IMG/VR virus record: IMGVR_UViG_3300020469_000038
Span: 6,169-70,168 of that record
From: a virus
Direction: 5' to 3' (one strand)
Length of the DNA stretch: 64,000 bases
Part shown: positions 1-9,945 of the stretch, piece after piece
How the letters are laid out: the number at the start of each line of letters is the position of its first letter
Numbering within the stretch: position 1 is the stretch's first letter
Program-made: the position numbers and the translations under genes
Notes under the pieces: generated by a model
Databases searched by the model: none
The model's input: only the letters and a program-made list of their open reading frames with translations
What the model was told of the DNA's origin: nothing

Positions 1-2350
1 GTGCTGCCGGTGTCGTTTGGGTAGGTTTATAATCCTTTTGACCTTGTGTTCTGTCTGGTCTTTGATATGGCTCTTCGGCCGAAGGTTCAGCGCCTGTAGT
101 GTCTTTTACTGCTGGATTATCGTCTTGTGGTGTAGTTGTAGCATCAGCACCTTGATCACCGCTTGTTGACGCTGTATCCGCGTCTGTGGCACCATCTGTA
201 GATGTTTTATCAGTTGCAGTTGATGTAGTTGATGTAGTTGAAGTAGTAGATTGGCTATTCATTTTATCACGCAATTCTTCTGCTTCACCTGGCTGTAATG
301 CAGCACCATTTTGAACAGGCTGATCTGTTTGCGTATCAAGAACATCATATGTTTTTGGATTTTGTGCATTTGGCTGCATAATAAATTTGTCGCCTTCAGC
401 GCCTGCATACTTGCCTGCTTCTTTATTCATTTTATCGCTCATAGGTTCTGCTTTTTCAGGAGCAAGAGCAACGCCATTCTTAATAGGCTTACTAGTTTGC
501 TTGTCAATAATATCTACTTTAGTTTCGTCTTTTGTATTTTTTTGTAGATAGTATCTTTCATCTTTACTTAATGTAGCATCACCTGTTGCTGGATCGGCAC
601 TAGATGTAGCAGTGTCCCCTGTTGGTGCTTCTGCATCACCTGTTGGTGCTTCTGCATCACCTGCTGGTGCTTCTGCATCACCTGCTGGTGTGTCAGTTGT
701 TGTGTCTGCTGCTGTATCAGTTGCTGTGTCTGCGTCTGCTGCTGGTGCGTCTGCATCACCTGTTGGTGTGCTTGTAGAAGTAGGAACGTCAATCTTCATT
801 GCATCATACGTGCCTTTAATAACATCATCTGCTACGCCTGCTGGCTTTAGAACTTTATCTGCAATTTCATTTGAATCTGTAGGTTCGCCTGCTTTAGTCC
901 AGGCCTTCATTAGTTTGTCTGCTGTAACTTTAGCAGTTAAATTTCTACCTGCTTTTTTAAGAGCACCGACACCTTTACCTATAGCACCTGCTGCTTTCTT
1001 TAATATTCCTGGTGCTTCGTTAACAGTTTGTCTATTATAATAAGTCACTGCATCAAATATACTTTCAAACATTAATTTGTTTTCTAGCATATGATTGTTT
1101 ACTTGTGTAATTTTATTGAACAGTAAATAAATCTGTCCTTCTGACAGTTTTTGTCCTTTGATTGCAATACTTTCTTGATTGCTTGTCTTTCTTTCTATAC
1201 CTGCTGTTGCAGCACCTTGTGCGGCTGCTGTTCCAACTTCAGCGGCTTGTTGCACTTGCTGAACTGTTTTTACTAAACTTTCTTTACTTGCGGCTATTAC
1301 TTCTAGTTGTGCATCTGTTAGATCTTTAGCATCTTTAAGATATTCAGCAGCCATATTCAAATCTCTATTTGTATCTGTTAGGCTTCTCATATATTCAACA
1401 TACTTGACTGATGCAGTGTTTAGTTCGTTACTGAAAGTACCAAACTCTGCTTTAGCGGAGTTCATTCCTCTAATAAGTTCGTTTAACTGATCAACTTGAT
1501 CTTGTTGTATAACACCACTGTATGATGCTCCGTATCCTGTTCCGAATGTTATATCTAAGTTAACCTTACTAGTGTATGCTTCTAAATTAGGATTTTTATC
1601 CCACACAGCGGCTACCTTATCTGGCATCTCTGCAAGACTGTCTTCTAGATTTGAATCTCTGACTAGTTCAACTTGATTAGCAATGTCTTCTGCGCCACCG
1701 CTTGCAATTGCTTCAATTTCATCTTTTGCAATGTATTCACTTGCCATACCAATTAACGCACCAATTGCTGCTGTCTTGGCTGACTTGCCAACTGCTGTTG
1801 AAAGGTCTTCGCCTTGTAATAAATCTTTAGTTGCTCTAGCAAGGAAACCAGCAACTGCACCACCAAATGGTCCTGTTGTCATTGCAGCCGCTGTTGTTAA
1901 AACAGCAACAGCAAGTGTTGCTTTGCCTGGATTTTCTTTTGCCCAGTCACTAACTGCTTTTACTGCACTTACAACTTTAGAATCTTTTTCGCCTATCTTT
2001 GTTTTTAGTTCAGCAAACTTAGCGTCTATGTTTTTTACTGGACCTGTTTCTTTTGCTGCTCTGCCAAGTTCGTTAATTTTGTTATTGATAAACTTAACTG
2101 CTTCAATAGGTAACGCTGCAATGTCTTTGCCTTTACCAATTGCTGTTCTGTTTCTTCCAGCGTCATCAGCACCTTTTTCAACAGTTGTAAACAGTTGTGT
2201 AATTTGTTCTTTTGATAAGTTTGCTTCTACAACGTATTTTTCAATATCGGCTAACCAAGGCTGAATAGTTTTTTGCTCTAGCAGTAGAAATGCTGGATCG
2301 TTCCAACCTTCACTAATATATTTTTTCTTTTGTAGTTGGCTTAGTCTCAT
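1..2350 (-). CDS. Large low-complexity virion/internal head protein, 3' end beyond window (>780 aa)
   Basis: ATG at 2350 overlaps the TGA of the upstream gene (ATGA). Manual translation MRLSQLQKKKYISEGWNDPAF... is open to position 1. Has a Gly/Ala hydrophobic segment and Thr/Asp/Ala-rich repeats. Absent from the ORF track because no stop lies in the window. Confidence 0.85.
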   Translation of the reverse strand, partial: MRLSQLQKKKYISEGWNDPAFLLLEQKTIQPWLADIEKYVVEANLSKEQITQLFTTVEKGADDAGRNRTAIGKGKDIAALPIEAVKFINNKINELGRAAKETGPVKNIDAKFAELKTKIGEKDSKVVSAVKAVSDWAKENPGKATLAVAVLTTAAAMTTGPFGGAVAGFLARATKDLLQGEDLSTAVGKSAKTAAIGALIGMASEYIAKDEIEAIASGGAEDIANQVELVRDSNLEDSLAEMPDKVAAVWDKNPNLEAYTSKVNLDITFGTGYGASYSGVIQQDQVDQLNELIRGMNSAKAEFGTFSNELNTASVKYVEYMRSLTDTNRDLNMAAEYLKDAKDLTDAQLEVIAASKESLVKTVQQVQQAAEVGTAAAQGAATAGIERKTSNQESIAIKGQKLSEGQIYLLFNKITQVNNHMLENKLMFESIFDAVTYYNRQTVNEAPGILKKAAGAIGKGVGALKKAGRNLTAKVTADKLMKAWTKAGEPTDSNEIADKVLKPAGVADDVIKGTYDAMKIDVPTSTSTPTGDADAPAADADTATDTAADTTTDTPAGDAEAPAGDAEAPTGDAEAPTGDTATSSADPATGDATLSKDERYYLQKNTKDETKVDIIDKQTSKPIKNGVALAPEKAEPMSDKMNKEAGKYAGAEGDKFIMQPNAQNPKTYDVLDTQTDQPVQNGAALQPGEAEELRDKMNSQSTTSTTSTTSTATDKTSTDGATDADTASTSGDQGADATTTPQDDNPAVKDTTGAEPSAEEPYQRPDRTQGQKDYKPTQTTPAA
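618..690 (+). repeat. 21-bp coding tandem repeat (~3.5 copies), GDAEAP[A/T] on the minus strand
   Basis: cctgttggtgcttctgcatca-like units at 618, 639 and 660, partial at 681; a related copy lies near 739-769. Confidence 0.9.
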
Positions 2351-3288
2351 AGCATTTTTCCAAGTTCAATTTTTTGTTTAGGTGTAAGCGAATCTAATTG
2401 TGCTTTAATATCTTTTGGAATTGCTTTATCACCTAGCGCACCTGTATACATACCTTTTAGAGCACCGCCTATTCCGCCTGATGCTGCTTGTCCAGTAAAA
2501 CTTGTGTCTGAAGTTTTTGCTTGTCCGCCTTGGTCACGTGCAATTGCATCTTGTACAGCAGCATAAAAAACATTATCAAGTTGTCCACCACTAAGTCCTT
2601 CTAGCAGTGTACCTACATTTGAAAAATCTATGCTTTGATTGACTGCAACTTTGTTACCACTTGGTGGTACAATTTTCTTTTTGCCCATACTTTTTACATT
2701 TACGGCGTCTTTAGGATCAGGTTCTGTTGTAGTTGGTGCAGTAGTTGTTGCACCCTGAGGCGCAGTTTTCTGTGCATTAGGATCATTATTAGGCGCAGTT
2801 TTCTGTGTATCTTGTGCTGTTGTTGGTGCTGGTGTTGTTGTCGCTGCAGGTTTAGGTGCGTTAGCATCTGCTGCTTTTTGAGCCATATCGTCATTTGCTT
2901 GTGATAGTTTATCGCCTGCTTGAGCAAGTTTGCCAACGGCTTTCGCTGCACCTTTTACTGTTCCGCCAACTACTTTACCTATTGCTCCGCCTACCTTAGC
3001 ACCTGTTGTAATTTTTTTCATTGCTTCTTTAGCACCGTCTGTAGGATATCCGTTTTTAGCAAGCCAGTTAAGTACCATATCAGGTGTTGCACCTTCGCCC
3101 TTATCTTGAGTTCCTAAGAACTTCATAAATTCTTTTTTCATCAAGTTGGCTTCTTTACCAAGTTCAAGTCTACCTGCTGCTTTATCACTGCCAACTTTTG
3201 CAAGTGCTTTGTCTTTCATCTTAGACAAGAAACCCATAGGTTTTTCATCTAGACGATCTGTTTCCACTAATATCTCATTAAGACGCAT
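2347..3288 (-). CDS. Hypothetical protein, probable internal head protein
   Basis: 313-aa ORF starting MRLNEILVE; Lys/Ala-rich, with a Thr/Pro linker; TAAATA box upstream. Confidence 0.75.
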   Translation of the reverse strand: MRLNEILVETDRLDEKPMGFLSKMKDKALAKVGSDKAAGRLELGKEANLMKKEFMKFLGTQDKGEGATPDMVLNWLAKNGYPTDGAKEAMKKITTGAKVGGAIGKVVGGTVKGAAKAVGKLAQAGDKLSQANDDMAQKAADANAPKPAATTTPAPTTAQDTQKTAPNNDPNAQKTAPQGATTTAPTTTEPDPKDAVNVKSMGKKKIVPPSGNKVAVNQSIDFSNVGTLLEGLSGGQLDNVFYAAVQDAIARDQGGQAKTSDTSFTGQAASGGIGGALKGMYTGALGDKAIPKDIKAQLDSLTPKQKIELGKML

Positions 3289-3328
3289 TGTATAATTCTC
3301 TCGTATGTAATATACTTTTACTTATTGT

Positions 3329-3334
3329 TATTTA
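3329..3334 (-). promoter_or_regulatory. T4-like late promoter core TAAATA
   Basis: Minus strand reads aagaaaTAAATAacaataag, ~40 nt upstream of ATG 3288; the same hexamer precedes many structural genes here. Confidence 0.6.
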
Positions 3335-3352
3335 TTTCTTATTGACTGTTTA

Positions 3353-3790
3353 AAGAGATCTAAAGATCTCTAGCGTTTTCGCTAAAGCTCAACGCTTTTT
3401 CTTCTCTAATGTTTATTAAGTGGTATAATATAAATTACGAAGTAATTTTTTAGCATCATCTAGATATTTGAGCCACAATTCGCCCGTTGCCGGACGAATT
3501 AGTGTGGATAACATCATCTGAGTTATCGTCGCCACATCTGTTTAAGAAGATTGTAATAAATTACACGGAGGCGGCGTACCGCATACCCCCTACTTCAGCA
3601 TTCGCATAATACGCGGAAAGCAGTTAATCCCAAACAGCGAAATCACTTACTCTGTGGTTGCTTTTTCTCAGAGCCACAATCTTTTTATACCTAAGTTAGT
3701 ATTGTCCTTGCAACGCACCAGAATCCGAACACACACGTAATGTGCCCTCAAGGTGAGTCGAGCATACTCGACCAAACTTTGTTGCTATGT
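3353..3790 (-). ncRNA. Candidate large structured non-coding RNA of unknown class
   Basis: Lies in a 510-bp gap with no tracked ORF. Contains many hairpins, a GCAA (GNRA) tetraloop on a 10-bp stem (3477-3500), G-U pairs favouring the minus strand and long-range helices. Confidence 0.6.
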
Positions 3791-3798
3791 AAATTAAG

Positions 3799-4251
3799 TT
3801 AAGCCTTGTTTTTGATGTGTCGTTCTAGGAGTGCCTGTCGCAGTTTGTCTGATCCGCCTACTCTAACATTAATAATACCGTTATAGTATTCGTTAGATTC
3901 TAGTACTCTGCGATCAAATTGTTCTCTAGCCTCAAGATAGGACATTTCGCCCCTGCCTGTACATAGGTAAAGTATTTCCCTTGTAAAGTTTTCTGACCCT
4001 AATGCGTCTACGTCTGCTTGAAGGTTATCAGATGAACCCCAGTAGGATTTCCAATCACTTTCTTTATATCCGCGTCTCTTGTTTTTTCTGCCTTTGAGTG
4101 GTGGCTTTGTAGTTTTAAACTTGGCTAGTTTCTTGCCTATATATTTTTTATTGTTGGTCTTGTTGGTAATAAGGTAAACAAACCCTTCGTATTCACTAGG
4201 AATAGTCTCTACAGGTTTATTGTTAAATGTCCAACTAGGTGTCTCCATCAT
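3799..4251 (-). CDS. Stand-alone GIY-YIG family nuclease
   Basis: GFVYLITN...KKYIGKK motif plus a conserved Glu (SYLEAREQ) and YYN; 150 aa, with no C-terminal DNA-binding domain. Confidence 0.85.
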   Translation of the reverse strand: MMETPSWTFNNKPVETIPSEYEGFVYLITNKTNNKKYIGKKLAKFKTTKPPLKGRKNKRRGYKESDWKSYWGSSDNLQADVDALGSENFTREILYLCTGRGEMSYLEAREQFDRRVLESNEYYNGIINVRVGGSDKLRQALLERHIKNKA

Positions 4252-4480
4252 TGTTACTTACTTTTGATGGTCTCCCTACCTTGCCTTTTCTGGCTTGTTT
4301 ACGATTTTGCCTCTTATCTTGTATCTCTATTCGCCTTACACTTGCGTGTCGTCTAATTTCTGATAACCAAAATCTTGCTTTTATGCCTGCTTCGTCACTT
4401 CCTTTATATTCAAAACGATCTTGCCACTTAAAGTAGTTTTGAAACGCTTCGATCATTTCGTCGTGACTGTCTGTACTCAT
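4235..4480 (-). CDS. Small basic protein, possibly Hc1/histone-H1-like DNA-binding
   Basis: GSDEAGIKARFWLSEIRRHASVRRIEIQ resembles the GNKAAGTRARK helix motif; K/R-rich tail. Confidence 0.5.
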   Translation of the reverse strand: MSTDSHDEMIEAFQNYFKWQDRFEYKGSDEAGIKARFWLSEIRRHASVRRIEIQDKRQNRKQARKGKVGRPSKVSNNDGDT

Positions 4481-5025
4481 CTCAAATTTGGGCCTGTAAA
4501 AAATAATGCCATTGACTTCCTAATACCAGAAGTTACTGGAGTTACTTTATGCTGTATCCAACTAGGAAACACTAAAAGTGATCCTGGTTTGTTAAATTCT
4601 GGAATTGGCCATTCGCCGTTTATAAAAAGTTTGAACTCACCGCCTTCGTATTCTGTATCACTACAATTTAGTAGTGCGGTCAACTTGATATCATACTGTT
4701 CCTCTAGTACACCGTCGCCGTGCCAACTGTATTCACCTTTGTAATATGCATCATATTCGTTATAAAGCATTGTTGTAAAGTTGTTTGGTTGATATAAATC
4801 AAATCCAAAGTTGTATTTGTTGATATCGTAAACAATGTTTACAATTCTGTCTACATCTTGTTTCAATTCACCATATTGCATTACACCTACACGACTTGTT
4901 TTCTTAACATTGTCAGCAGGCTCGTCAAATCCATCATTGACAATCTTGCTTTTAAATGTTTCAACTAGTTGTGGTAGTTGTTCCTGTGGGTGTGCATCTG
5001 GTGAACAAAAGTAACTTACCTTCAT
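4477..5025 (-). CDS. 2OG-Fe(II) oxygenase (prolyl-hydroxylase/PKHD-like)
   Basis: HxD (WHGD), YEGGEF, distal His (QHKVTPVTSGIRKS) and 2OG-binding Arg. Confidence 0.9.
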   Translation of the reverse strand: MKVSYFCSPDAHPQEQLPQLVETFKSKIVNDGFDEPADNVKKTSRVGVMQYGELKQDVDRIVNIVYDINKYNFGFDLYQPNNFTTMLYNEYDAYYKGEYSWHGDGVLEEQYDIKLTALLNCSDTEYEGGEFKLFINGEWPIPEFNKPGSLLVFPSWIQHKVTPVTSGIRKSMALFFTGPNLR

Positions 5026-6800
5026 TGCACAATCTCTACATCATTTGAGTAACTTGTAAAGCCATTCTCTTTAATAACTTTCAATACGTGATTAACACGA
5101 CCTGCTAAATCATCTCTATGCGAGATCAAAAATACATTTTTGTTACGTTCACGTGTCATTTTCTTAAGAATACTAATACTGCTTTCCACACCAGCACTAT
5201 CCATACCACTATCTACAAGTTCATCAATAAACAATAGATTGATACCGTGATATAGTGATTCCCATACATCTCTAAATGCCCAACTTAGACTTAATATGAG
5301 TCTATTTCGCTCACCTCTACTAAGGTTATCGAAGTCTAAGTCCTGTCCTAGTTGTGTAATAATCACTGTTAAATCGTTCTGAAACTCTACAATGTGCGGT
5401 AATCCTACCTTTGCCAAGTAGTAAGTTAAGCGTTGATTTAGATATGCTAAGTTCTGTTCAATAATTTTCTTACGTACAAAACTATCTTTGTTTGTAAGCA
5501 GTTTATACAAGAAATCCATATGATCTTTTACTTTGCTAAGTTCATTAAGTTCATCAAAACTTACTTCTTGCATTGCTGTTTCTTTTAAATCATCAATCTG
5601 TTCAAGATATGGATTTTCTTCTGCTTTCTTTTGTTCTAATTCTTTCTGCAAACTTTCTACAGTGTTACGATGGTTGTATGCTTCTTCAACACTATCATAT
5701 TGTGTTGTAGGACACGCTTCTAATTCACCAATGTCAGCAACAATCTTTGCGTGTTCTGCATATTTTGTTTCGTTTGTTACAATGTGTAGTGCTGCCTCTT
5801 GCAATAAACCTTCTTTGTCTTTAAGTATTACATCTTGTTTGCTGTCGTGTAAGTCCTGTCCACACGCATAGCACTTGTGATCCTTTAGATCAGCAATCTC
5901 TTTGTCTAGTTTAGCAATAGTTTTTTCTTGTTTCTGATTGTCAGCAGTAATATTCGCCATCCAACGCTGTGCTTCTTCTAATGAACGCTTTTTGTCATTA
6001 AAGTTCTCCCAACATTTGTGTGCTTCAATCTCTGCTTCGATATCAATCTTCTCTAGTTTAGCAATACCGTTTTCTAGATCCGTAATTGTAGAAAGTTTAG
6101 TATCTTCCCACATCTTTTGTTTACGTTCTAGACTTTCAATGTTTGCTTGTATTCTTTCATTAGATGCTTTTACAGTTTCTATACGAGTGTTCTCAGCATT
6201 TGTTGCATCACGGTTAATACGCATCTTCTCTTTAAGCCCATCTGCTTTCTCAGACAGCATAGTTATACCAAGTAACTGCTCAATAATGTTGCGTTGATCG
6301 TTATTCTTCATACTTAAGAACGGTTCAGTATAAGTGTTCAACGCAAGTATGTGTTTAAACATATCGTGACTCATTCCAAACAAGTCTTCGATTGCTTTCT
6401 GCGTTTCTCTACTATCACCTTGTGCTTCGTTATGATCAGTCGGCTCTTCTTCTGTGCCGTTTACAACAAATTTAAGAATATTAGGCTTGCGTCCTCTATG
6501 AATAGAATATTCAATCCCATTCTTTTCAAACTCAATTGAAACTAGCATACCTTTGCCGTTAATCTTGTTGATAAGATTATCACGTTTAATATTAGTAAGT
6601 GCGTTACCGTAAATTGCATAACTTAATGCATTGACAATAGTAGTTTTACCAGTGCCGTTTCTGGAACCACTATCGTCTCCGCCTAAGTCTAAGTTTTCAC
6701 CTAGTACAAGTGTCAGTTCTCCTTTGTCAAAATCAATTGCTTGAGTTTGATTACCAACACTCATAAAGTTTTTTACTGTTATATTTTTAATTTTTATCAT
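5022..6800 (-). CDS. gp46: Recombination endonuclease ATPase subunit (Rad50/SbcC-like)
   Basis: Walker A NGTGKT, coiled coils, zinc hook CYAC, signature LSRGE, Walker B LLFIDE, H-loop ISH. Confidence 0.95.
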   Translation of the reverse strand: MIKIKNITVKNFMSVGNQTQAIDFDKGELTLVLGENLDLGGDDSGSRNGTGKTTIVNALSYAIYGNALTNIKRDNLINKINGKGMLVSIEFEKNGIEYSIHRGRKPNILKFVVNGTEEEPTDHNEAQGDSRETQKAIEDLFGMSHDMFKHILALNTYTEPFLSMKNNDQRNIIEQLLGITMLSEKADGLKEKMRINRDATNAENTRIETVKASNERIQANIESLERKQKMWEDTKLSTITDLENGIAKLEKIDIEAEIEAHKCWENFNDKKRSLEEAQRWMANITADNQKQEKTIAKLDKEIADLKDHKCYACGQDLHDSKQDVILKDKEGLLQEAALHIVTNETKYAEHAKIVADIGELEACPTTQYDSVEEAYNHRNTVESLQKELEQKKAEENPYLEQIDDLKETAMQEVSFDELNELSKVKDHMDFLYKLLTNKDSFVRKKIIEQNLAYLNQRLTYYLAKVGLPHIVEFQNDLTVIITQLGQDLDFDNLSRGERNRLILSLSWAFRDVWESLYHGINLLFIDELVDSGMDSAGVESSISILKKMTRERNKNVFLISHRDDLAGRVNHVLKVIKENGFTSYSNDVEIVQ

Positions 6801-7807
6801 AGGTCTCGATAAATCTCCGTAAGCATACGCTTGTCATAAGAGTCGCTGTCTAATTGTTCGATTTGATTCATTACAATAGTATCAACACTTTCAAATGACA
6901 AATCGATAGGATCAATATTTGATTCTACTTCTACTTTCTCTGGAATCAACATAAGTTCACGAAGTTTAAACTGCGGAATAAACTGTTCCTTAATAAAGTT
7001 TGCTTCTTCAAAAGTAATTTGTACATCAATCGTAACACGACAATGCATATTTTCTTTTAGATGGTCTTCTGGTTTTTCTAAAAGTTGACTTAGTTTGAAT
7101 GTTCTAAACACAGGTTGTGCAGGCCAAGTCTTATATTCAGGCACCCCACCCCACTCTAAGAACATCATACCACGTTCATCATCCCACGCATCTGCATAGT
7201 TGTGCGGAAATGCATTACCCATATAGGTTACATTGCCTTTTGTTTGACGTTTGTGGAAGTGTCCTGAGAACACGTATTCTTGATTAGTAAAATGATCTGG
7301 CTGTAATTCTCCGTGATCAGGCATTTCAACCATTGCATTCATTTTAAAGTATGGTAATTCAAAGTGACCAAACACATATCTGCTTTTAATATTTTTAACA
7401 GCCTTCCATTCTTCTCCAACTAGCCAAGGCAACAATGTAACATCGCCTTCTGTTAGTTGTTCTGTGATCGGAATAATGTTAGGAAACAATCTCATAAATT
7501 CAATACTATTGATTTCACGTTTGTCTTTATAAAACAAATCGTGATTACCAACCATAAAGTAAGTTTTCTCGAATGTTTCGTTGAGTCTTTCTAAATTACT
7601 CACTGTGTAGTTCATTGTGCTGACATCTGTAGTCGCACGATTGTGGTGCCAGTCTCCTAAAAAGATGCAAGTTTCTGCACCAGCGGCTTTTGCTTCCTTG
7701 CAAAACCACTTTAGGAACTCTTCACAATCCATATTGTGTGTCCTACTTCCACTTTTCATTCCAAAGTGAATGTCTGTGAAGCAGGCTGCTTTTTTAAATA
7801 ACGGCAT
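6797..7807 (-). CDS. gp47: Recombination endonuclease nuclease subunit (Mre11/SbcD-like)
   Basis: Metallophosphoesterase motifs DIH, GD, GNHD, GH and SGHFH; adjacent to gp46. Confidence 0.95.
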   Translation of the reverse strand: MPLFKKAACFTDIHFGMKSGSRTHNMDCEEFLKWFCKEAKAAGAETCIFLGDWHHNRATTDVSTMNYTVSNLERLNETFEKTYFMVGNHDLFYKDKREINSIEFMRLFPNIIPITEQLTEGDVTLLPWLVGEEWKAVKNIKSRYVFGHFELPYFKMNAMVEMPDHGELQPDHFTNQEYVFSGHFHKRQTKGNVTYMGNAFPHNYADAWDDERGMMFLEWGGVPEYKTWPAQPVFRTFKLSQLLEKPEDHLKENMHCRVTIDVQITFEEANFIKEQFIPQFKLRELMLIPEKVEVESNIDPIDLSFESVDTIVMNQIEQLDSDSYDKRMLTEIYRDL

Positions 7808-7825
7808 TCTTTACTCCTATACTAC

Positions 7826-7854
7826 ATTTTACAGTAGTTTTGTTCATAAGTCAA
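7826..7854 (-). promoter_or_regulatory. Sigma70-type promoter for the gp47-gp46 operon
   Basis: TTGACT-17 bp-TAAAAT, then AGGAG RBS before ATG 7807. Confidence 0.7.
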
Positions 7855-8699
7855 GACTTTTTCTTAGTTTTTGTTGCAGGCGCAGCCGCAGGAGGCGTTT
7901 GACTGTCTCCTCGTCCTTGTTCCTGACGTGACCAACTAGGATTCATACCATTCATTTCTAAAATATCATCTCTAATATTTTGGTTACGTTTTTCGATATT
8001 AATGATACGTACAAAACTATTAGTAACAGCAGCGGTATAATAAGCAAAAGGATTATTACTTTTAGATTCATCAAACTGTAGTCCTATCTGTGCCAACTGT
8101 AATATTGCTTGGCCTTTCATTTCGTCATTGTATGTGTAACCTCTTACATTACCACGTGTTGCATATCGATCACACAACTTCATCCACATTCTTGCAAGGT
8201 CGTTAGTTGCTTTACCACATCTTCCGTCGAAGTATCCGTTTTCCATACCACCTACCCAATGACTTTTACCTACACAAATTAGGTTTCCTTTGTCATCGAA
8301 CTTCCAATGCTGGAAAGGCGGAAAGTTTACTTTTGTATGATGGTCTGCTACTGTTTTCTTTGTTTTCTTTCGTGTTAAGTCTTCTGGTATATGTTCAAAT
8401 GTCATTACCCTAAACACTACTTCTTCCTTGGTAATCTTTTTATAATCAATTTCAAACTGCTTTGCTGGTATCTTTTTCCCGGCTGCTTCAACTGCTTCAG
8501 CGTGTGCTTTCTTTGCTAATCTTGCTGCACGGTTGCGTTTTGCTTCGGCTGTAGTTCTAATGTTAATTTTTTCAAGACTTGGTACAATTAAGTCGTATTG
8601 ATGGTGTTCAGAATCGACAAACGAACAGAAGGTACTCTTACTGCGGTGTATTTCAGCAAGTAGGTCCTTATTTGTCAAATAATTTGTTCTTTTTGCCAT
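7851..8699 (-). CDS. gp55: Phage late-transcription sigma factor
   Basis: YLTNKDLLAEI N-terminus; GYTYNDEMKGQA...FDESKSNNPFAYYTAAVTNSF core; gp55-gp47-gp46 order as in T4. Confidence 0.85.
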   Translation of the reverse strand: MAKRTNYLTNKDLLAEIHRSKSTFCSFVDSEHHQYDLIVPSLEKINIRTTAEAKRNRAARLAKKAHAEAVEAAGKKIPAKQFEIDYKKITKEEVVFRVMTFEHIPEDLTRKKTKKTVADHHTKVNFPPFQHWKFDDKGNLICVGKSHWVGGMENGYFDGRCGKATNDLARMWMKLCDRYATRGNVRGYTYNDEMKGQAILQLAQIGLQFDESKSNNPFAYYTAAVTNSFVRIINIEKRNQNIRDDILEMNGMNPSWSRQEQGRGDSQTPPAAAPATKTKKKS

Positions 8700-8748
8700 A
8701 TTTCTATTCTCCTCTATGAATTAATATAATAGCACATTTCTCTTGAAA

Positions 8749-8754
8749 TAAATA
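8749..8754 (+). promoter_or_regulatory. Late promoter core TAAATA driving the tail/baseplate operon
   Basis: aTAAATA in the divergent gap, 27 nt before ATG 8782. Confidence 0.65.
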
Positions 8755-8781
8755 GAGTTATATATAGGAAATTTTACCAAA

Positions 8782-9945
8782 ATGTTAAATATAAATCCGT
8801 TAGCAAAATTAACCACACAAGTCAACAGTTCTGTCGCGGCCGATATAGCCGCTGCAACAGCAAAAGCAAATGCTGCAATTAACGTTGCAGGCAACTTACA
8901 AGATAAAATTGCACTCGATGGAAAGATCGACCAATTATCAGGTGGTTTAACAAGTGGTTTGAACCAAGCAGCAGCAGGTATGAACATTGCTGGTATGCTA
9001 TCTGGTGCAAACTCTGCATTAGAAACAGGGGCAGGTAAAGTAATCCAATCGCCAGTAGGTTCAGGTTCAATTGATTCTGCTGCAGAATCTCTAGGTACTC
9101 TAGGAAGTGTGTTTGGCGGCGTAGCAAGCCAACTTGAAAAAACAGCCGGAGATATTTCCGGTGCTCTTACAAAATTAACCGGCGGAGATTTAGCAGGTGG
9201 CTTCACAGACATTGCAGCGTCTATTGGACAAACTGCTGGCAATCTCAATGATATTTTAAGTTTAAAACGTGGTGCCAACTTACCTCCGGGCGGTGAATTG
9301 TTTACTACAACAGGGGAAAAGATAAAACTTAACCCTAGTGCCGACAATGACTGGCGTATCAAAATTAGTTGCAATTGGAGTAACTTTAACAGTGACTTGT
9401 TTTCAGTATTGCAGAAAACCGGCGGTGTTACTTGGCCAGTGTTACCTACAATGGAAATTAGAACAACTGCAAACTATTCAGAATTAGCACCAGTACATAA
9501 TAATTATCCGTATCTTGCTTACAAGAACTCACAAGTGGACGCAATCAATATTAGCGGAGACTTTATTTGTGAAACTGAATCAGATGCGGCATATTGGATT
9601 GCAGCAACAACATTCTTTAGAACTGTAACTAAAATGTTTTATGGTCAAGGAGCAAACGTTGGTAATCCTCCACCGGTTTGTATGTTAAACGGATACGGAA
9701 GTATGTTGTTTGAAAACACACCGATTGTAGTTAAAAGTTTTAGTGTTCAAATGCCTAACGATGTCAACTATATTAAAGTAAGTCCAAATCTTACAGGTAG
9801 TAATAAACCAACTTGGGTACCTATTAAAAGTAATATTAGTTGTGAAGTACAGCCTATCTACAACAGATCAAGTATGAGAAAATTCAGTCTTACAGATTAT
9901 GCCAATGGGCAGATGTCTAACAAAGGCGGAGTGGGGTACTTCTAA
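8782..9945 (+). CDS. Baseplate/tail-tube-associated protein (tube initiator/cap-like)
   Basis: Gly/Ala-rich N-terminus; C-terminal tube-like domain (YKNSQVDAINISGDF, NPPPVCMLNGYG); sits directly before the gp53-like gene. Confidence 0.6.
   Translation: MLNINPLAKLTTQVNSSVAADIAAATAKANAAINVAGNLQDKIALDGKIDQLSGGLTSGLNQAAAGMNIAGMLSGANSALETGAGKVIQSPVGSGSIDSAAESLGTLGSVFGGVASQLEKTAGDISGALTKLTGGDLAGGFTDIAASIGQTAGNLNDILSLKRGANLPPGGELFTTTGEKIKLNPSADNDWRIKISCNWSNFNSDLFSVLQKTGGVTWPVLPTMEIRTTANYSELAPVHNNYPYLAYKNSQVDAINISGDFICETESDAAYWIAATTFFRTVTKMFYGQGANVGNPPPVCMLNGYGSMLFENTPIVVKSFSVQMPNDVNYIKVSPNLTGSNKPTWVPIKSNISCEVQPIYNRSSMRKFSLTDYANGQMSNKGGVGYF

What the first reader, a model, noticed from the sequence alone, without database searches (positions are those of the whole stretch)
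3353..4251. Large structured ncRNA directly downstream of a minimal GIY-YIG nuclease: candidate RNA-partnered nuclease system
Seen: in a gene-dense phage, a 510-bp gap with no tracked ORF starts at the GIY-YIG stop codon and is packed with helices on the same (minus) strand. These include GUCGAG-uaug-CUCGAC (3772-3757), CCUUG...CAAGG, UGUGG-gcu..agc-CCACA, a 10-bp stem capped by a GCAA tetraloop (3500-3477), GAUAAC/GUUAUC, long-range CUGUUUGGGA/UCUUAAACAG and AAGAUUGU/ACAAUCUU, and a terminal AGAGAUCU/AGAUCUCU hairpin. The GNRA loop and G-U pairs favour the minus strand, which argues for RNA. The 150-aa nuclease has only the catalytic domain plus a K/R-rich insert (PPLKGRKNKRRG). Known: GIY-YIG homing endonucleases normally carry separate DNA-binding modules. 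I could not recognise tRNA, tmRNA, RNase P or group I/II intron signatures. Inference: the RNA is the 3' end of the gp47-gp46-GIY-YIG transcript and may scaffold or guide the nuclease, or act in recombination-dependent replication.
Basis: partly seen in the sequence, partly recalled or inferred. Interest (0 to 1): 0.85.

Follow-up and report, generated by a model that had tools for sequence, protein, structure and literature searches.

The report
Twin-box structured phage RNA beside nuclease
The gene-free stretch behind a small nuclease gene of this uncultured, probably giant, marine phage encodes a real, knotted RNA of about 435 bases that many aquatic phages share; its job is unknown, and the nuclease looks like a fixed neighbour rather than an enzyme that the RNA guides.

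Summary
Window 3354-3789 (minus strand) is a self-contained gene for a pseudoknotted non-coding RNA of about 435 nt. On 24 homologues, 98.7% of cells pair, against 36-46% in slid controls, and 23 pairs change on both sides. Indels break every frame.

Rfam does not recognise the window's RNA. At the same locus in freshwater relatives, the first third of the homologous RNA is the orphan motif Polynucleobacter-1, RF01718. Their 3' halves are homologous to the window's.

All 160 real RNAs examined carry one 7-nt word twice, and it always changes in step. No complement was found in cis.

In 196 loci found through the RNA, a nuclease gene always lies next door. In one locus it is a PDDEXK enzyme instead of GIY-YIG, five carry insertions in between, and one has the RNA cassette inverted. 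GIY-YIG homologues also occur without the RNA. A guide or scaffold role is therefore not supported.

My best reading, with moderate confidence, is a trans-acting RNA that presents its twin boxes to two copies of one partner. This scan has noted the same RNA family before, on other genomes.

The parts
3354..3789 (-). Whole RNA unit: 5' closing strand, knotted core, twin boxes, UUCG hairpin, AU-rich linker and two terminal hairpins
   Evidence: Conserved as a block directly 3' of the GIY-YIG gene. The whole block, terminal hairpins included, is inverted in L318.
3433..3789 (-). Covarying core (alignment A3)
   Evidence: Of 98 pairs in 18 helices, 98.7% of cells pair, against 36-46% in slid controls. 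23 pairs change on both sides, against 1-8 when slid. 0 of 500 shuffles reach the covariation score.
3537..3686 (-). Central multi-helix junction domain, modelled as covariance model R1
   Evidence: R1 scores 162.3 bits here. It is the only copy in the 70-kb record.
3756..3773 (-). 5' hairpin GGUCGAG/CUCGACU
   Evidence: Seven pairs: one compensatory (G-C to A-U) and two that switch between wobble and Watson-Crick (helix 2).
3716..3755 (-). Helix CACC/GGUG enclosing a variable hairpin (3727-3746)
   Evidence: Two covarying pairs in the outer helix and 4 of 5 in the inner one. The hairpin varies in length among relatives.
3618..3652 (-). Two-part stem whose loop CUGUUU (3632-3637) pairs with AAACAG (3538-3543), forming a pseudoknot
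   Evidence: Stem: 3 of 12 pairs compensatory. Knot: 2 of 6 pairs compensatory and 100% of cells paired (helices 10 and 11).
3654..3677 (-). Hairpin GUGG/CCAC with an A-rich loop
   Evidence: 3 of 4 pairs changed on both sides (helix 8).
3553..3564 (-). Variable hairpin, the site of large insertions in relatives
   Evidence: 4 of 5 pairs compensatory (helix 16). Relatives carry insertions of tens of nt here.
3585..3606 (-). Invariant 22-nt stretch, partly unpaired
   Evidence: Identical in all 21 aligned sequences. Found as an exact match in 72 IMG/VR stretches.
3513..3519 (-). Box 1 (AGAUGAU), in the loop of a local hairpin
   Evidence: Twin-box identity holds in 160 of 160 real RNAs. Its strongest covarying partner is the same position of box 2.
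3455..3461 (-). Box 2 (AGAUGAU), the same word as box 1
3477..3500 (-). Stem of 9-10 pairs capped by GCAA, between the two boxes
   Evidence: 100% of cells paired (helix 17). The stem is compensated and the loop varies in distant relatives.
3433..3447 (-). UUCG-capped hairpin
   Evidence: Two compensatory pairs (helix 18).
3354..3395 (-). Two terminal hairpins
   Evidence: Compensatory changes in both (columns 515-557). Kept in distant relatives.
3327..3336 (-). AAUAAAUA-type motif between the RNA and the next gene, read as a T4-type late promoter for the 313-aa ORF
   Evidence: Conserved in relatives. The late-promoter consensus is recalled from memory, so this reading is an inference.
3799..4251 (-). 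GIY-YIG nuclease gene, 150 aa, catalytic domain only
   Evidence: Pfam PF19835 at 1e-35 and phrog_447. Motif residues are invariant in 15 homologues. The model has pLDDT 85.8, and its best fold match is the I-TevI catalytic domain, a weak match at E 0.26.
4235..4480 (-). 81-aa basic protein, conserved between gp46 and the nuclease gene
   Evidence: tblastn hits in most related loci. No Pfam or PHROG family.

Best explanation
**What it is.** Window 3354-3789 (minus strand) is a self-contained gene for a pseudoknotted non-coding RNA of about 435 nt. It is a marine variant of a large RNA family of uncultured aquatic T4-like phages, probably jumbo ones. In freshwater members, the first third of the RNA is catalogued as the orphan Rfam motif Polynucleobacter-1.

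**Shown.**
- The fold is under selection as RNA on the gene strand.
- The unit ends an early-gene block (gp55, gp47, gp46, small ORFs, GIY-YIG) and is followed by what looks like a late promoter.
- Two identical 7-nt boxes flank a stable capped hairpin. They change in step across eight variants.

**Inferred.**
- The RNA is made as the 3' end of the operon transcript, or from a promoter of its own, and persists as a stable RNA.
- It works in trans as an RNA or ribonucleoprotein. It presents its two boxes to two copies of one fast-evolving partner, most simply a nucleic acid read by base pairing.
- The GIY-YIG nuclease is a conserved syntenic neighbour at a junction that mobile nuclease genes favour, not an enzyme that the RNA guides.

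**My odds.** Real structured RNA, 0.97. Same superfamily as RF01718-bearing RNAs, 0.85. Neighbour rather than guide, 0.7. Twin boxes binding two copies of one partner, 0.3.
For: **RNA-level selection.**
- Covariation: one search gives 98.7% of cells paired against 36-46% in slid controls, 23 pairs changed on both sides against 1-8, and 0 of 500 shuffles reaching the score. Searches give 17 and 21 compensatory pairs.
- Strand: conserved G-U pairs, and fold z -3.14 against -1.85 for the other strand.
- Not coding: non-triplet indels.

**Family.**
- The 3' half is found by nhmmer in 20 of 25 distant loci. Two more were found with a freshwater profile.
- 71 of the 80 loci found through the nuclease hold the RNA. 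Five of the other nine are cut off right after the gene.
- RF01718 is hit at 69-116 bits in 10 of 13 such loci, and in L214, L265, L163 and L167.

**Twin boxes.**
- 84 of 85 and then 160 of 162 sequences carry identical boxes. The two failures in the second set (L198, L212) are not this RNA.
- The best mutual-information partner of box-1 position 1 is box-2 position 1, identical in 69 of 71 sequences.

**A self-contained cassette.** The block is inverted whole in L318.

**Neighbour rather than partner.**
- L146 has a PDDEXK_15 nuclease (2e-27) in the GIY-YIG position.
- Four loci have a second gene of homing-endonuclease type inserted between nuclease and RNA: phrog_314 at 6.8e-16 for L265's ORF, the only one of the four scanned.
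- L214 has a radical-SAM gene inserted, and L075 has a 341-aa ORF there.
- In L131 the GIY-YIG reading frame is split.
- GIY-YIG homologues without the RNA occur in Melnitz, S-SRM01, ACG-2014f and phiM7.
Against: - No transcript ends or RNA abundance are known. Contigs from RNA libraries cover the gene and, in one relative's 2.9-kb contig, both the gene and the RNA. Such libraries can hold DNA.
- No partner for the boxes was found. There is no complement within -1500 to +600 nt in 84 loci. No complementary covarying column stands apart from lineage effects. Nothing in the 64-kb window exceeds chance.
- The near-perfect linkage to a nuclease gene (196 of 196 loci) is stronger than mere neighbourhood predicts. 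The nuclease is under purifying selection. A functional tie therefore remains possible.
- The loci are not de-replicated, and recombination makes them mosaic, so the counts overstate independent events.
- No promoter of the RNA's own was found in the window.
Confidence: 0.5

Rival explanations
1. The RNA is a working partner of the adjacent nuclease. It could be a scaffold, an activator, an inhibitor or decoy, or a short dual guide, so that RNA and enzyme act as one ribonucleoprotein.
For: - A nuclease gene lies next to the RNA in 196 of 196 loci found through the RNA, and on the same strand in 195.
- Adjacency survives even the inversion in L318.
- The nuclease lacks any DNA-binding domain and has a basic insert.
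- Its catalytic residues are invariant over 50-92% identity.
Against: - In L146 a PDDEXK enzyme replaces the nuclease.
- Genes of 0.7-1.8 kb are inserted between the two in five loci (L265, L232, L273, L216, L214), and L075 has a 341-aa ORF there. Their products were scanned.
- Close homologues (69% identity in Melnitz) and distant ones work without the RNA. L043, L068 and L071 also lack it.
- There is no long variable guide segment.
- The family of stand-alone proteins of about 148 aa (phrog_447) is widespread.
Confidence: 0.15
2. The RNA is a cis-acting operon-end element. It would be a structured 3' UTR that stabilises or terminates the gp47-gp46-nuclease transcript, or that controls expression of the last gene or of the next, late, gene.
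For: - The RNA lies on the same strand, downstream of the operon's last ORF, in 195 of 196 loci, whatever that ORF is.
- It begins within about 10 nt of the stop codon.
- It ends in two hairpins followed by a late-promoter-like motif.
- The Weinberg 2010 table rates Polynucleobacter-1 as probably cis-regulatory (one table row seen).
Against: - About 435 nt with pseudoknots, invariant unpaired stretches and twin boxes is far more than a terminator or stabiliser needs.
- L318 has the cassette inverted, so there it cannot be that operon's 3' UTR.
- The downstream gene differs among loci and is separated from the RNA by its own promoter-like motif.
- No terminator-like site is found by the consensus scan.
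Confidence: 0.12
3. The selected object is at bottom a DNA or R-loop element: a homing target or hotspot for free-standing endonuclease genes, or an RNA-primed replication origin in which the transcript re-pairs with its template.
For: - The junction between nuclease gene and RNA attracts nuclease genes of two or three kinds.
- The element lies beside the recombination genes gp46 and gp47.
- Identical direct repeats flank a strong hairpin.
Against: - Compensatory changes and strand-specific G-U pairs show selection on folded RNA.
- No allele with the RNA but without any nuclease was seen in 196 loci. Homing into a conserved target would predict such alleles.
- No variant with one box and no hairpin was seen in 160 RNAs.
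Confidence: 0.08
4. The RNA is a ribozyme or a self-processing RNA, for example one that cuts or joins at the two identical boxes.
For: - Its size, pseudoknots and long invariant unpaired stretches resemble those of catalytic or ligand-binding RNAs.
- Two identical sites flank a stable hairpin.
Against: - No Rfam ribozyme or intron model matches, even at E up to 10.
- No interrupted host gene is present.
- There is no evidence of a joined or shortened form. The contigs show no joint at the boxes, but contigs are poor evidence on this point.
Confidence: 0.07

Closest known systems
Polynucleobacter-1 RNA motif (Rfam RF01718; Weinberg et al. 2010, PMC2864571; only its Table 1 row was seen)
   Same: - It sits at the same locus, directly 3' of the homologous GIY-YIG gene after gp46, in related phages.
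- RNAs bearing the motif share the window's 3' half: twin boxes, capped hairpin, UUCG-type hairpin and terminal hairpins.
- Its function is likewise unknown.
   Different: - The Rfam model covers only the first 141 nt of an RNA of about 470 nt.
- It does not score the window at all, even at E up to 10.
- The window's 5' half has diverged in sequence and partly in helices.
- In that table the motif is listed for Burkholderiales and for fresh water and estuary, and rated probably cis-regulatory. It is not described there as a phage RNA or as linked to a nuclease gene.
HEARO / omega RNA of IscB, and TnpB guide RNAs
   Same: A large structured RNA lies next to a small nuclease gene. HEARO was first catalogued as an orphan motif associated with a nuclease gene (recalled).
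   Different: - There is no Rfam match.
- The nuclease is GIY-YIG, not RuvC/HNH.
- There is no long variable guide.
- The nuclease can be swapped, displaced or absent.
- The element is not part of a transposon.
GOLLD and ROOL large ornate RNAs of phages and prophages
   Same: A large, intricately folded RNA that is phage-borne, widespread and of unknown function.
   Different: There is no sequence or model match. This RNA differs in size, context and motifs, and its twin boxes are a feature of its own. The comparison with GOLLD and ROOL rests on recall.
Free-standing GIY-YIG homing endonucleases of T4-like phages (Seg proteins), and intron-endonuclease pairs
   Same: - The nuclease matches the SegE catalytic-domain family.
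- Its best fold match is I-TevI, weakly.
- It sits between conserved genes.
- The junction also takes up other nuclease genes. In the same way, one intron can host endonucleases of different families (recalled).
   Different: - There is no DNA-binding domain.
- The gene is fixed rather than sporadic in this phage clade.
- The RNA is not an intron: no exons, and no group I or II match.
Two-piece tmRNA of Melnitz-like and pelagimyophages (PMC9004378; passages read)
   Same: A structured RNA of similar size, encoded by related marine myophages.
   Different: ARAGORN and the Rfam tmRNA models find nothing here. Frame-breaking indels rule out a conserved tag reading frame. In Melnitz the tmRNA lies elsewhere, and covariance model R1 finds nothing in that genome.

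Membership tests
Rfam RF01718 Polynucleobacter-1 | Covariance-model score at or above the gathering threshold (37 bits) | tested here: not met
   No match in the window at gathering, nor at E up to 10 in 3200-3900. Relatives at the same locus score 69-117 bits.
Rfam RF01718 Polynucleobacter-1 | Homology to RNAs that carry the motif | tested here: met
   nhmmer aligns the window-type profile to the 3' half of motif-bearing RNAs, with E from 1e-17 to 1e-2. Synteny is the same and the twin boxes are shared.
Guide RNA of an RNA-guided nuclease (omega RNA / HEARO type) | A variable guide segment of about 15 nt or more beside a conserved scaffold | tested here: not met
   The variable parts are compensated hairpins plus two 7-nt boxes.
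Guide RNA of an RNA-guided nuclease (omega RNA / HEARO type) | Obligate co-occurrence of the RNA with one nuclease family | tested here: not met
   A PDDEXK swap in L146, and GIY-YIG homologues without the RNA.
Group I or II intron with an endonuclease gene | Match to an intron model, and an interrupted host gene | tested here: not met
   No Rfam match at E up to 10. The flanking ORFs are complete, and the upstream ORF overlaps the nuclease gene's start.
tmRNA (one-piece or two-piece) | tRNA-like domain and a conserved tag reading frame | tested here: not met
   ARAGORN finds none, Rfam finds none, and frame-breaking indels occur in the candidate frame.
Free-standing GIY-YIG homing endonuclease (Seg-like) | GIY-YIG catalytic domain with its motif residues | tested here: met
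   PF19835 at 1e-35. The Tyr, Arg, Glu and Asn positions are invariant in 15 homologues.
Free-standing GIY-YIG homing endonuclease (Seg-like) | A separate DNA-binding domain | tested here: not met
   The 150-aa protein is covered by the catalytic-domain profile. The model shows one domain plus a C-terminal helix.
Free-standing GIY-YIG homing endonuclease (Seg-like) | Sporadic presence among related genomes | tested here: not met
   Present upstream of the RNA in 195 of 196 loci found through the RNA.
Type III toxin-antitoxin RNA | A tandem array of repeats upstream of an endoribonuclease toxin gene | tested here: not met
   Only two partly identical modules, inside a large fold downstream of a GIY-YIG gene. 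No tandem-repeat finder was run.

The most novel reading that the evidence does not exclude
The twin boxes are a programmable dual specifier. The RNA base-pairs through two identical, fast-evolving words of 7-10 nt with two copies of a nucleic-acid target (phage DNA, host DNA or an RNA). It thereby directs, or licenses, whichever small structure-specific nuclease is encoded next door, whether GIY-YIG or PDDEXK. That would be a new, minimal kind of RNA-directed nuclease system in jumbo phages.
Probability: 0.05. Interest if true: 0.9.

Novelty: new variant of a known kind. Interest (0 to 1): 0.62.

Why it matters
Large, intricately folded RNAs of unknown function are rare. Past examples have led to new biochemistry, as with guide RNAs, riboswitches and RNA cages.

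This RNA is widespread in uncultured aquatic T4-like phages and is more conserved than the proteins around it. It is represented in RNA databases only by a 141-nt fragment of its freshwater form, listed as a probable bacterial cis-regulator.

Three results here reframe that orphan motif and give experimenters a precise handle:
- The full unit is about three times longer than the catalogued fragment.
- It is phage-borne and tied to a nuclease-gene junction.
- It carries two boxes that always change together.

If the boxes read a target by base pairing, the family would be a new recognition device.

Tried and rejected
**Known RNA families.** Rfam gave nothing at gathering score for the whole window. 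At E up to 10 in 3200-3900 it gave only noise, sau-5971 and RMST_5. ARAGORN found no tRNA or tmRNA.

**Coding reading.** Rejected. The only ORFs are of 39 and 35 aa, and relatives break them with non-triplet indels.

**Cultured phages.**
- blastn of the window's RNA and of a freshwater homologue against 50,697 phage records gave no match.
- The nearest cultured kin by gp46 are PA5oct (49%) and Atu_ph07 (47%).
- The 4 kb on each side of their gp46 genes show no hit by nhmmer, by the twin-box pattern or by Rfam.
- The four ncRNAs of the PA5oct paper lie elsewhere in that genome (passages read).

**Covariance models.**
I built the 154-position model R1 instead.
- R1 finds only the window and L033 among 52 sources, so it is too narrow for distant kin.
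- RNAalifold on the 30-sequence 3'-domain alignment returned no structure, because MAFFT misaligned the central hairpin. I therefore built no second model.

**Box partner.**
- No reverse complement of the box lies at a consistent place within -1500 to +600 nt in 84 loci.
- Mutual information finds no complementary column apart from lineage-linked ones.
- In the window, the only 11-mer complements with at most one mismatch are the boxes' own opposite strand and a few scattered sites.
- By eye I also rejected anticodon-loop, codon, C/D-box, promoter -10 and palindrome readings of the boxes. None fits all eight variants.

**Promoter and terminator scan.** One promoter-like site and one terminator-like site, neither above the shuffles.

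**Bacterial genomes.** The freshwater pattern hit 26 stretches in bacterial genomes. Of the three scanned with Rfam (L157, L163, L167), two tiny contigs of one MAG hold RF01718. The other 23 were not scanned; the count is about what I expect by chance. I could not test whether the family lies on bacterial islands.

**RNA libraries.** Runs X1-X3 gave contigs over the nuclease gene only and none over the RNA. X4 gave a relative's contig over both. These are contigs, and DNA carry-over is possible, so nothing follows about expression.

**Protein relatives with structures.** Sequence searches of the PDB, with the protein and with a 15-sequence profile, found nothing. Foldseek gave only weak I-TevI matches.

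**Not run.** Complex prediction was not used, because it takes no RNA.

**Papers.**
- Searches for 'Polynucleobacter-1' (one paper), for GIY-YIG with noncoding RNA, covariation and phage, for GIY-YIG with structured RNA, bacteriophage and metagenom* and for pelagimyophage turned up no description of this RNA.
- One search was too loose and gave nothing useful.
Full report
**The locus.**

All genes in window 1-9000 read on the minus strand. In order they are:
- a gp55-like ORF (7851-8699);
- a gp47-like ORF (6797-7807) and a gp46-like ORF (5022-6800);
- a 2OG-Fe(II) oxygenase (4477-5025);
- an 81-aa basic ORF (4235-4480);
- the 150-aa GIY-YIG ORF (3799-4251);
- a gap of 510 nt (3289-3798);
- a 313-aa ORF (2347-3288).

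The nuclease matches Pfam SegE_GIY-YIG over residues 7-127 at 1e-35 and phrog_447. It has no second domain.

The window is part of a 70-kb IMG/VR record that CheckV rates 20% complete. I infer a genome of several hundred kb. By gp46, the nearest cultured relatives are the jumbo phages PA5oct (49%) and Atu_ph07 (47%).

Yes.
- The gap holds only two minus-strand ORFs, of 39 and 35 aa.
- As RNA, the minus strand folds at -130 kcal/mol, z -3.14, and 0 of 100 shuffles fold as well. The plus strand gives z -1.85.
- Of the 80 IMG/VR loci that encode a relative of the nuclease, 29 match the gap by blastn (71-95% identity; L061 only over 79 nt further downstream). 28 of these matches begin right at the end of the nuclease gene.
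- The alignments show hairpins whose two sides change together, hairpins that vary in length, and indels of one or two bases that break every frame.
- On 24 homologues of the core (window 3433-3789), a curated structure of 98 pairs in 18 helices has 98.7% of cells paired, against 36-46% when the 3' partners are slid by 1-3 columns. It has 23 pairs with changes on both sides, against 1-8 when slid. Its covariation score is 0.239, against 0.019-0.070. None of 500 shuffles reaches the observed values.
- Many pairs are G-U in most sequences. These would be A-C on the other strand, so the RNA is on the gene strand.

Most of them stand. Two do not. CCUUG/CAAGG is not supported, because those bases pair as CACC/GGUG with two covarying pairs. 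GAUAAC/GUUAUC exists only in close kin. The pairing of CUGUUU with AAACAG is real, with two compensatory pairs. It knots the loop of a covarying hairpin to a distant strand.

**Extent.**

The conserved unit runs from 3789 to the terminal hairpin at 3354. It comprises:
- a knotted core, including a central junction domain at 3537-3686;
- box 1;
- a GCAA-capped stem;
- box 2;
- a UUCG hairpin;
- an AU-rich linker;
- two hairpins with compensatory changes.

An AAUAAAUA-type motif follows and is conserved in relatives. I read it as a T4-type late promoter for the next gene. The consensus is recalled from memory, so this is an inference.

**What family is it?**

- Rfam 15 finds nothing in the window at gathering score, and only noise at E up to 10. 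ARAGORN finds no tRNA or tmRNA.
- The nuclease gene sits after gp46 in nearly all 80 loci. It is followed there by a stretch of about 450-550 nt without long ORFs.
- A profile of 36 window-type RNAs aligns to the 3' half of that stretch in 20 of 25 distant loci. A freshwater profile adds two more.
- Over all 80 loci, 71 hold the RNA. Five are cut off within 21 nt of the gene. Four give no hit: L043, L068, L071, and L032, which is borderline.
- In 10 of 13 distant loci, the first 141 nt after the stop codon match Rfam RF01718, Polynucleobacter-1, at 69-116 bits against a threshold of 37.
- That motif comes from Weinberg et al. 2010. I could see only its Table 1 row, which gives Burkholderiales and fresh water or estuary, and rates it probably cis-regulatory. 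It is the only paper in the library that names the motif.
- The freshwater RNAs are about 470 nt long. They share with the window the central G-rich hairpin region, both boxes, the capped hairpin, the UUCG-type hairpin and the terminal hairpins.

The window's RNA is therefore a marine variant of a superfamily of which only a fragment is catalogued. It fails the RF01718 model itself.

**The twin boxes.**

- Two modules of about 24 nt flank the capped hairpin. Each ends in the same heptamer, AGAUGAU in the window, at 3513-3519 and 3455-3461.
- Across 85 distinct sequences, the first six positions of the two heptamers agree in 84. The 85th, in L106, I take to be a chance match. The 84 fall into nine pairs of words.
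- In a second count, 160 of 162 sequences with enough 3' sequence have matching boxes. The two failures (L198, L212) are chance pattern hits without RF01718.
- Within 71 freshwater RNAs, the column that shares most information with box-1 position 1 is box-2 position 1 (MI 0.81, identical in 69 of 71).
- The two bases before each box also agree between the modules.
- In several lineages box 1 sits in the loop of a local hairpin (by inspection).
- I found no complement. None lies at a consistent place within -1500 to +600 nt in 84 loci. No complementary covarying column stands apart from lineage effects. Nothing in the 64-kb window exceeds chance.
- No member lacks one box and the hairpin.

Identity covariation of two single-stranded words is most simply explained if both are read by the same partner through base pairing. 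That partner is unknown.

**Partner or neighbour?**

*Sampling through the RNA.*
- The invariant 22-mer finds 72 stretches. Of these, 64 hold at least 650 nt upstream. In 63 of the 64 the GIY-YIG ORF abuts the RNA, though in L131 it is split between two frames. In L146 a 182-aa PDDEXK_15 protein (2e-27; phrog_244) takes its place.
- A freshwater pattern finds 116 stretches, of which I analysed 114. Two are chance hits and two lack upstream sequence.
- All the other 110 have the GIY-YIG gene upstream on the same strand, and in 105 it abuts the RNA.
- Four of the 110 have a 0.68-kb insertion that encodes a second protein of homing-endonuclease type (phrog_314, 6.8e-16; only L265's ORF was scanned).
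- One of the 110 has a 1.8-kb insertion with a radical-SAM/B12 gene.
- A third pattern adds 26 new loci. In 21 of the 22 with enough sequence the gene abuts the RNA. In L318 the whole RNA cassette is inverted and lies 53 nt from the start of a divergent GIY-YIG gene.

In sum, a nuclease gene is next door in 196 of 196 loci. These loci are not de-replicated.

*Sampling through the nuclease.*
- Homologues lie in other contexts, with no gap and no R1 hit anywhere in the record, in Melnitz (69%), S-SRM01, ACG-2014f and phiM7.
- L043, L068 and L071 lack the RNA.

The dependence is therefore one-sided. The RNA is almost never without a nuclease neighbour, whereas the nuclease family does well without the RNA.

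The swap, the insertions and the inversion argue against a specific ribonucleoprotein. They argue for a self-contained RNA gene at a junction that mobile nuclease genes favour. On the other side, the nuclease is fixed and under purifying selection in this clade. A functional tie cannot be excluded.

**The nuclease itself.**

The GIY, YIG, Arg, Glu and Asn positions are invariant in 15 homologues of 51-81% identity. An AlphaFold model (pLDDT 85.8) finds only weak Foldseek matches. The best is the I-TevI catalytic domain (E 0.26, probability 0.92). Sequence searches of the PDB find nothing.

**Expression.**

Metatranscriptome runs hold parts of the stretch. When laid, three runs give contigs identical to the nuclease gene. 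A fourth gives a relative's 2.9-kb contig that spans both the RNA and the gene. These are contigs from libraries that may hold DNA. They show presence, not transcription, ends or abundance. No sigma-70-type promoter or intrinsic terminator stands out.

**Mechanism.**

Shown: a folded, strand-specific, self-contained RNA with two co-varying boxes.

Inferred: it is released from the operon transcript, or made from its own promoter as L318 requires. It then acts in trans, presenting the boxes to two copies of one partner.

The rivals, with my odds, are:
- a working partner of the nuclease (0.15);
- a cis-acting operon-end element (0.12);
- a DNA or R-loop element (0.08);
- a ribozyme (0.07).

**Novelty and earlier notes.**

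My literature searches found no description beyond the RF01718 table entry. After I had reached the results above, I looked up the scan's notebook. It shows that the same family has been noted many times on other genomes: 157 notes by words and look-alikes in 13 genomes by sequence. Those notes describe the same twin boxes and the same closest known family. They agree with my reading and did not shape it.

Three of their further claims I could not confirm. I saw no case of the RNA without any nuclease: 0 of 196 loci. Look-alikes in cultured giant phages did not turn up near gp46 of PA5oct or Atu_ph07. Presence on bacterial islands I could not test.

Noticed in passing
L318:1123-2161 (my re-oriented coordinates): The whole RNA cassette, terminal hairpins included, lies inverted between the oxygenase gene and the GIY-YIG gene. 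Its 5' end is 53 nt from the start of the nuclease gene and diverges from it, so the RNA must have its own promoter there.
   Followed up: partly
L146:5007-5555 (-): A 182-aa PDDEXK_15 protein (annotated as a RusA-like resolvase) replaces the GIY-YIG gene directly upstream of the RNA. The same RNA also has changes in the strands that may close the fold.
   Followed up: partly
L265:2924-3544, also L232, L273 and L216; L214:4681-6488; L075:4436-5461: Extra genes are inserted exactly between the nuclease gene's stop codon and the RNA's start. They are a second gene of homing-endonuclease type (phrog_314), a radical-SAM/B12 gene with a 151-aa ORF, and an unassigned 341-aa ORF.
   Followed up: partly
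window 3553-3564 and 3727-3746; relatives L003, L016, L028, L088, L111: Two hairpins of the RNA accept insertions of tens of bases in relatives. Identical insertions turn up in otherwise different lineages, which points to mosaic recombination within the RNA gene.
   Followed up: no
window 4235-4480 (-): An 81-aa lysine- and arginine-rich protein is conserved between gp46 and the nuclease gene across the clade. It belongs to no Pfam or PHROG family. It could bind nucleic acid.
   Followed up: no
window 4477-5025 (-): The 2OG-Fe(II) oxygenase gene between gp46 and the 81-aa ORF is present in some related loci and absent in others.
   Followed up: no
L163:586-719 and L167:1036-1169: RF01718 occurs on two contigs of 1.5-2 kb binned into a Bacteroidetes MAG. 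This is probably phage DNA that was mis-binned.
   Followed up: partly
L323:6520-8530 (PA5oct, record 75169-77180): Next to gp46, the cultured jumbo phage PA5oct has a RusA-like resolvase gene followed by about 1.5 kb with only tiny annotated ORFs. My profiles, the box pattern and Rfam find nothing there.
   Followed up: partly
window 2-2350 and 2347-3288 (-): The two ORFs after the RNA are rich in low-complexity Thr/Ala/Asp/Pro runs. They begin after a late-promoter-like motif and belong to no family (the 313-aa ORF was tested).
   Followed up: no
L131, GIY-YIG region: The nuclease gene is split between two reading frames. This is either a pseudogene or an assembly error.
   Followed up: no
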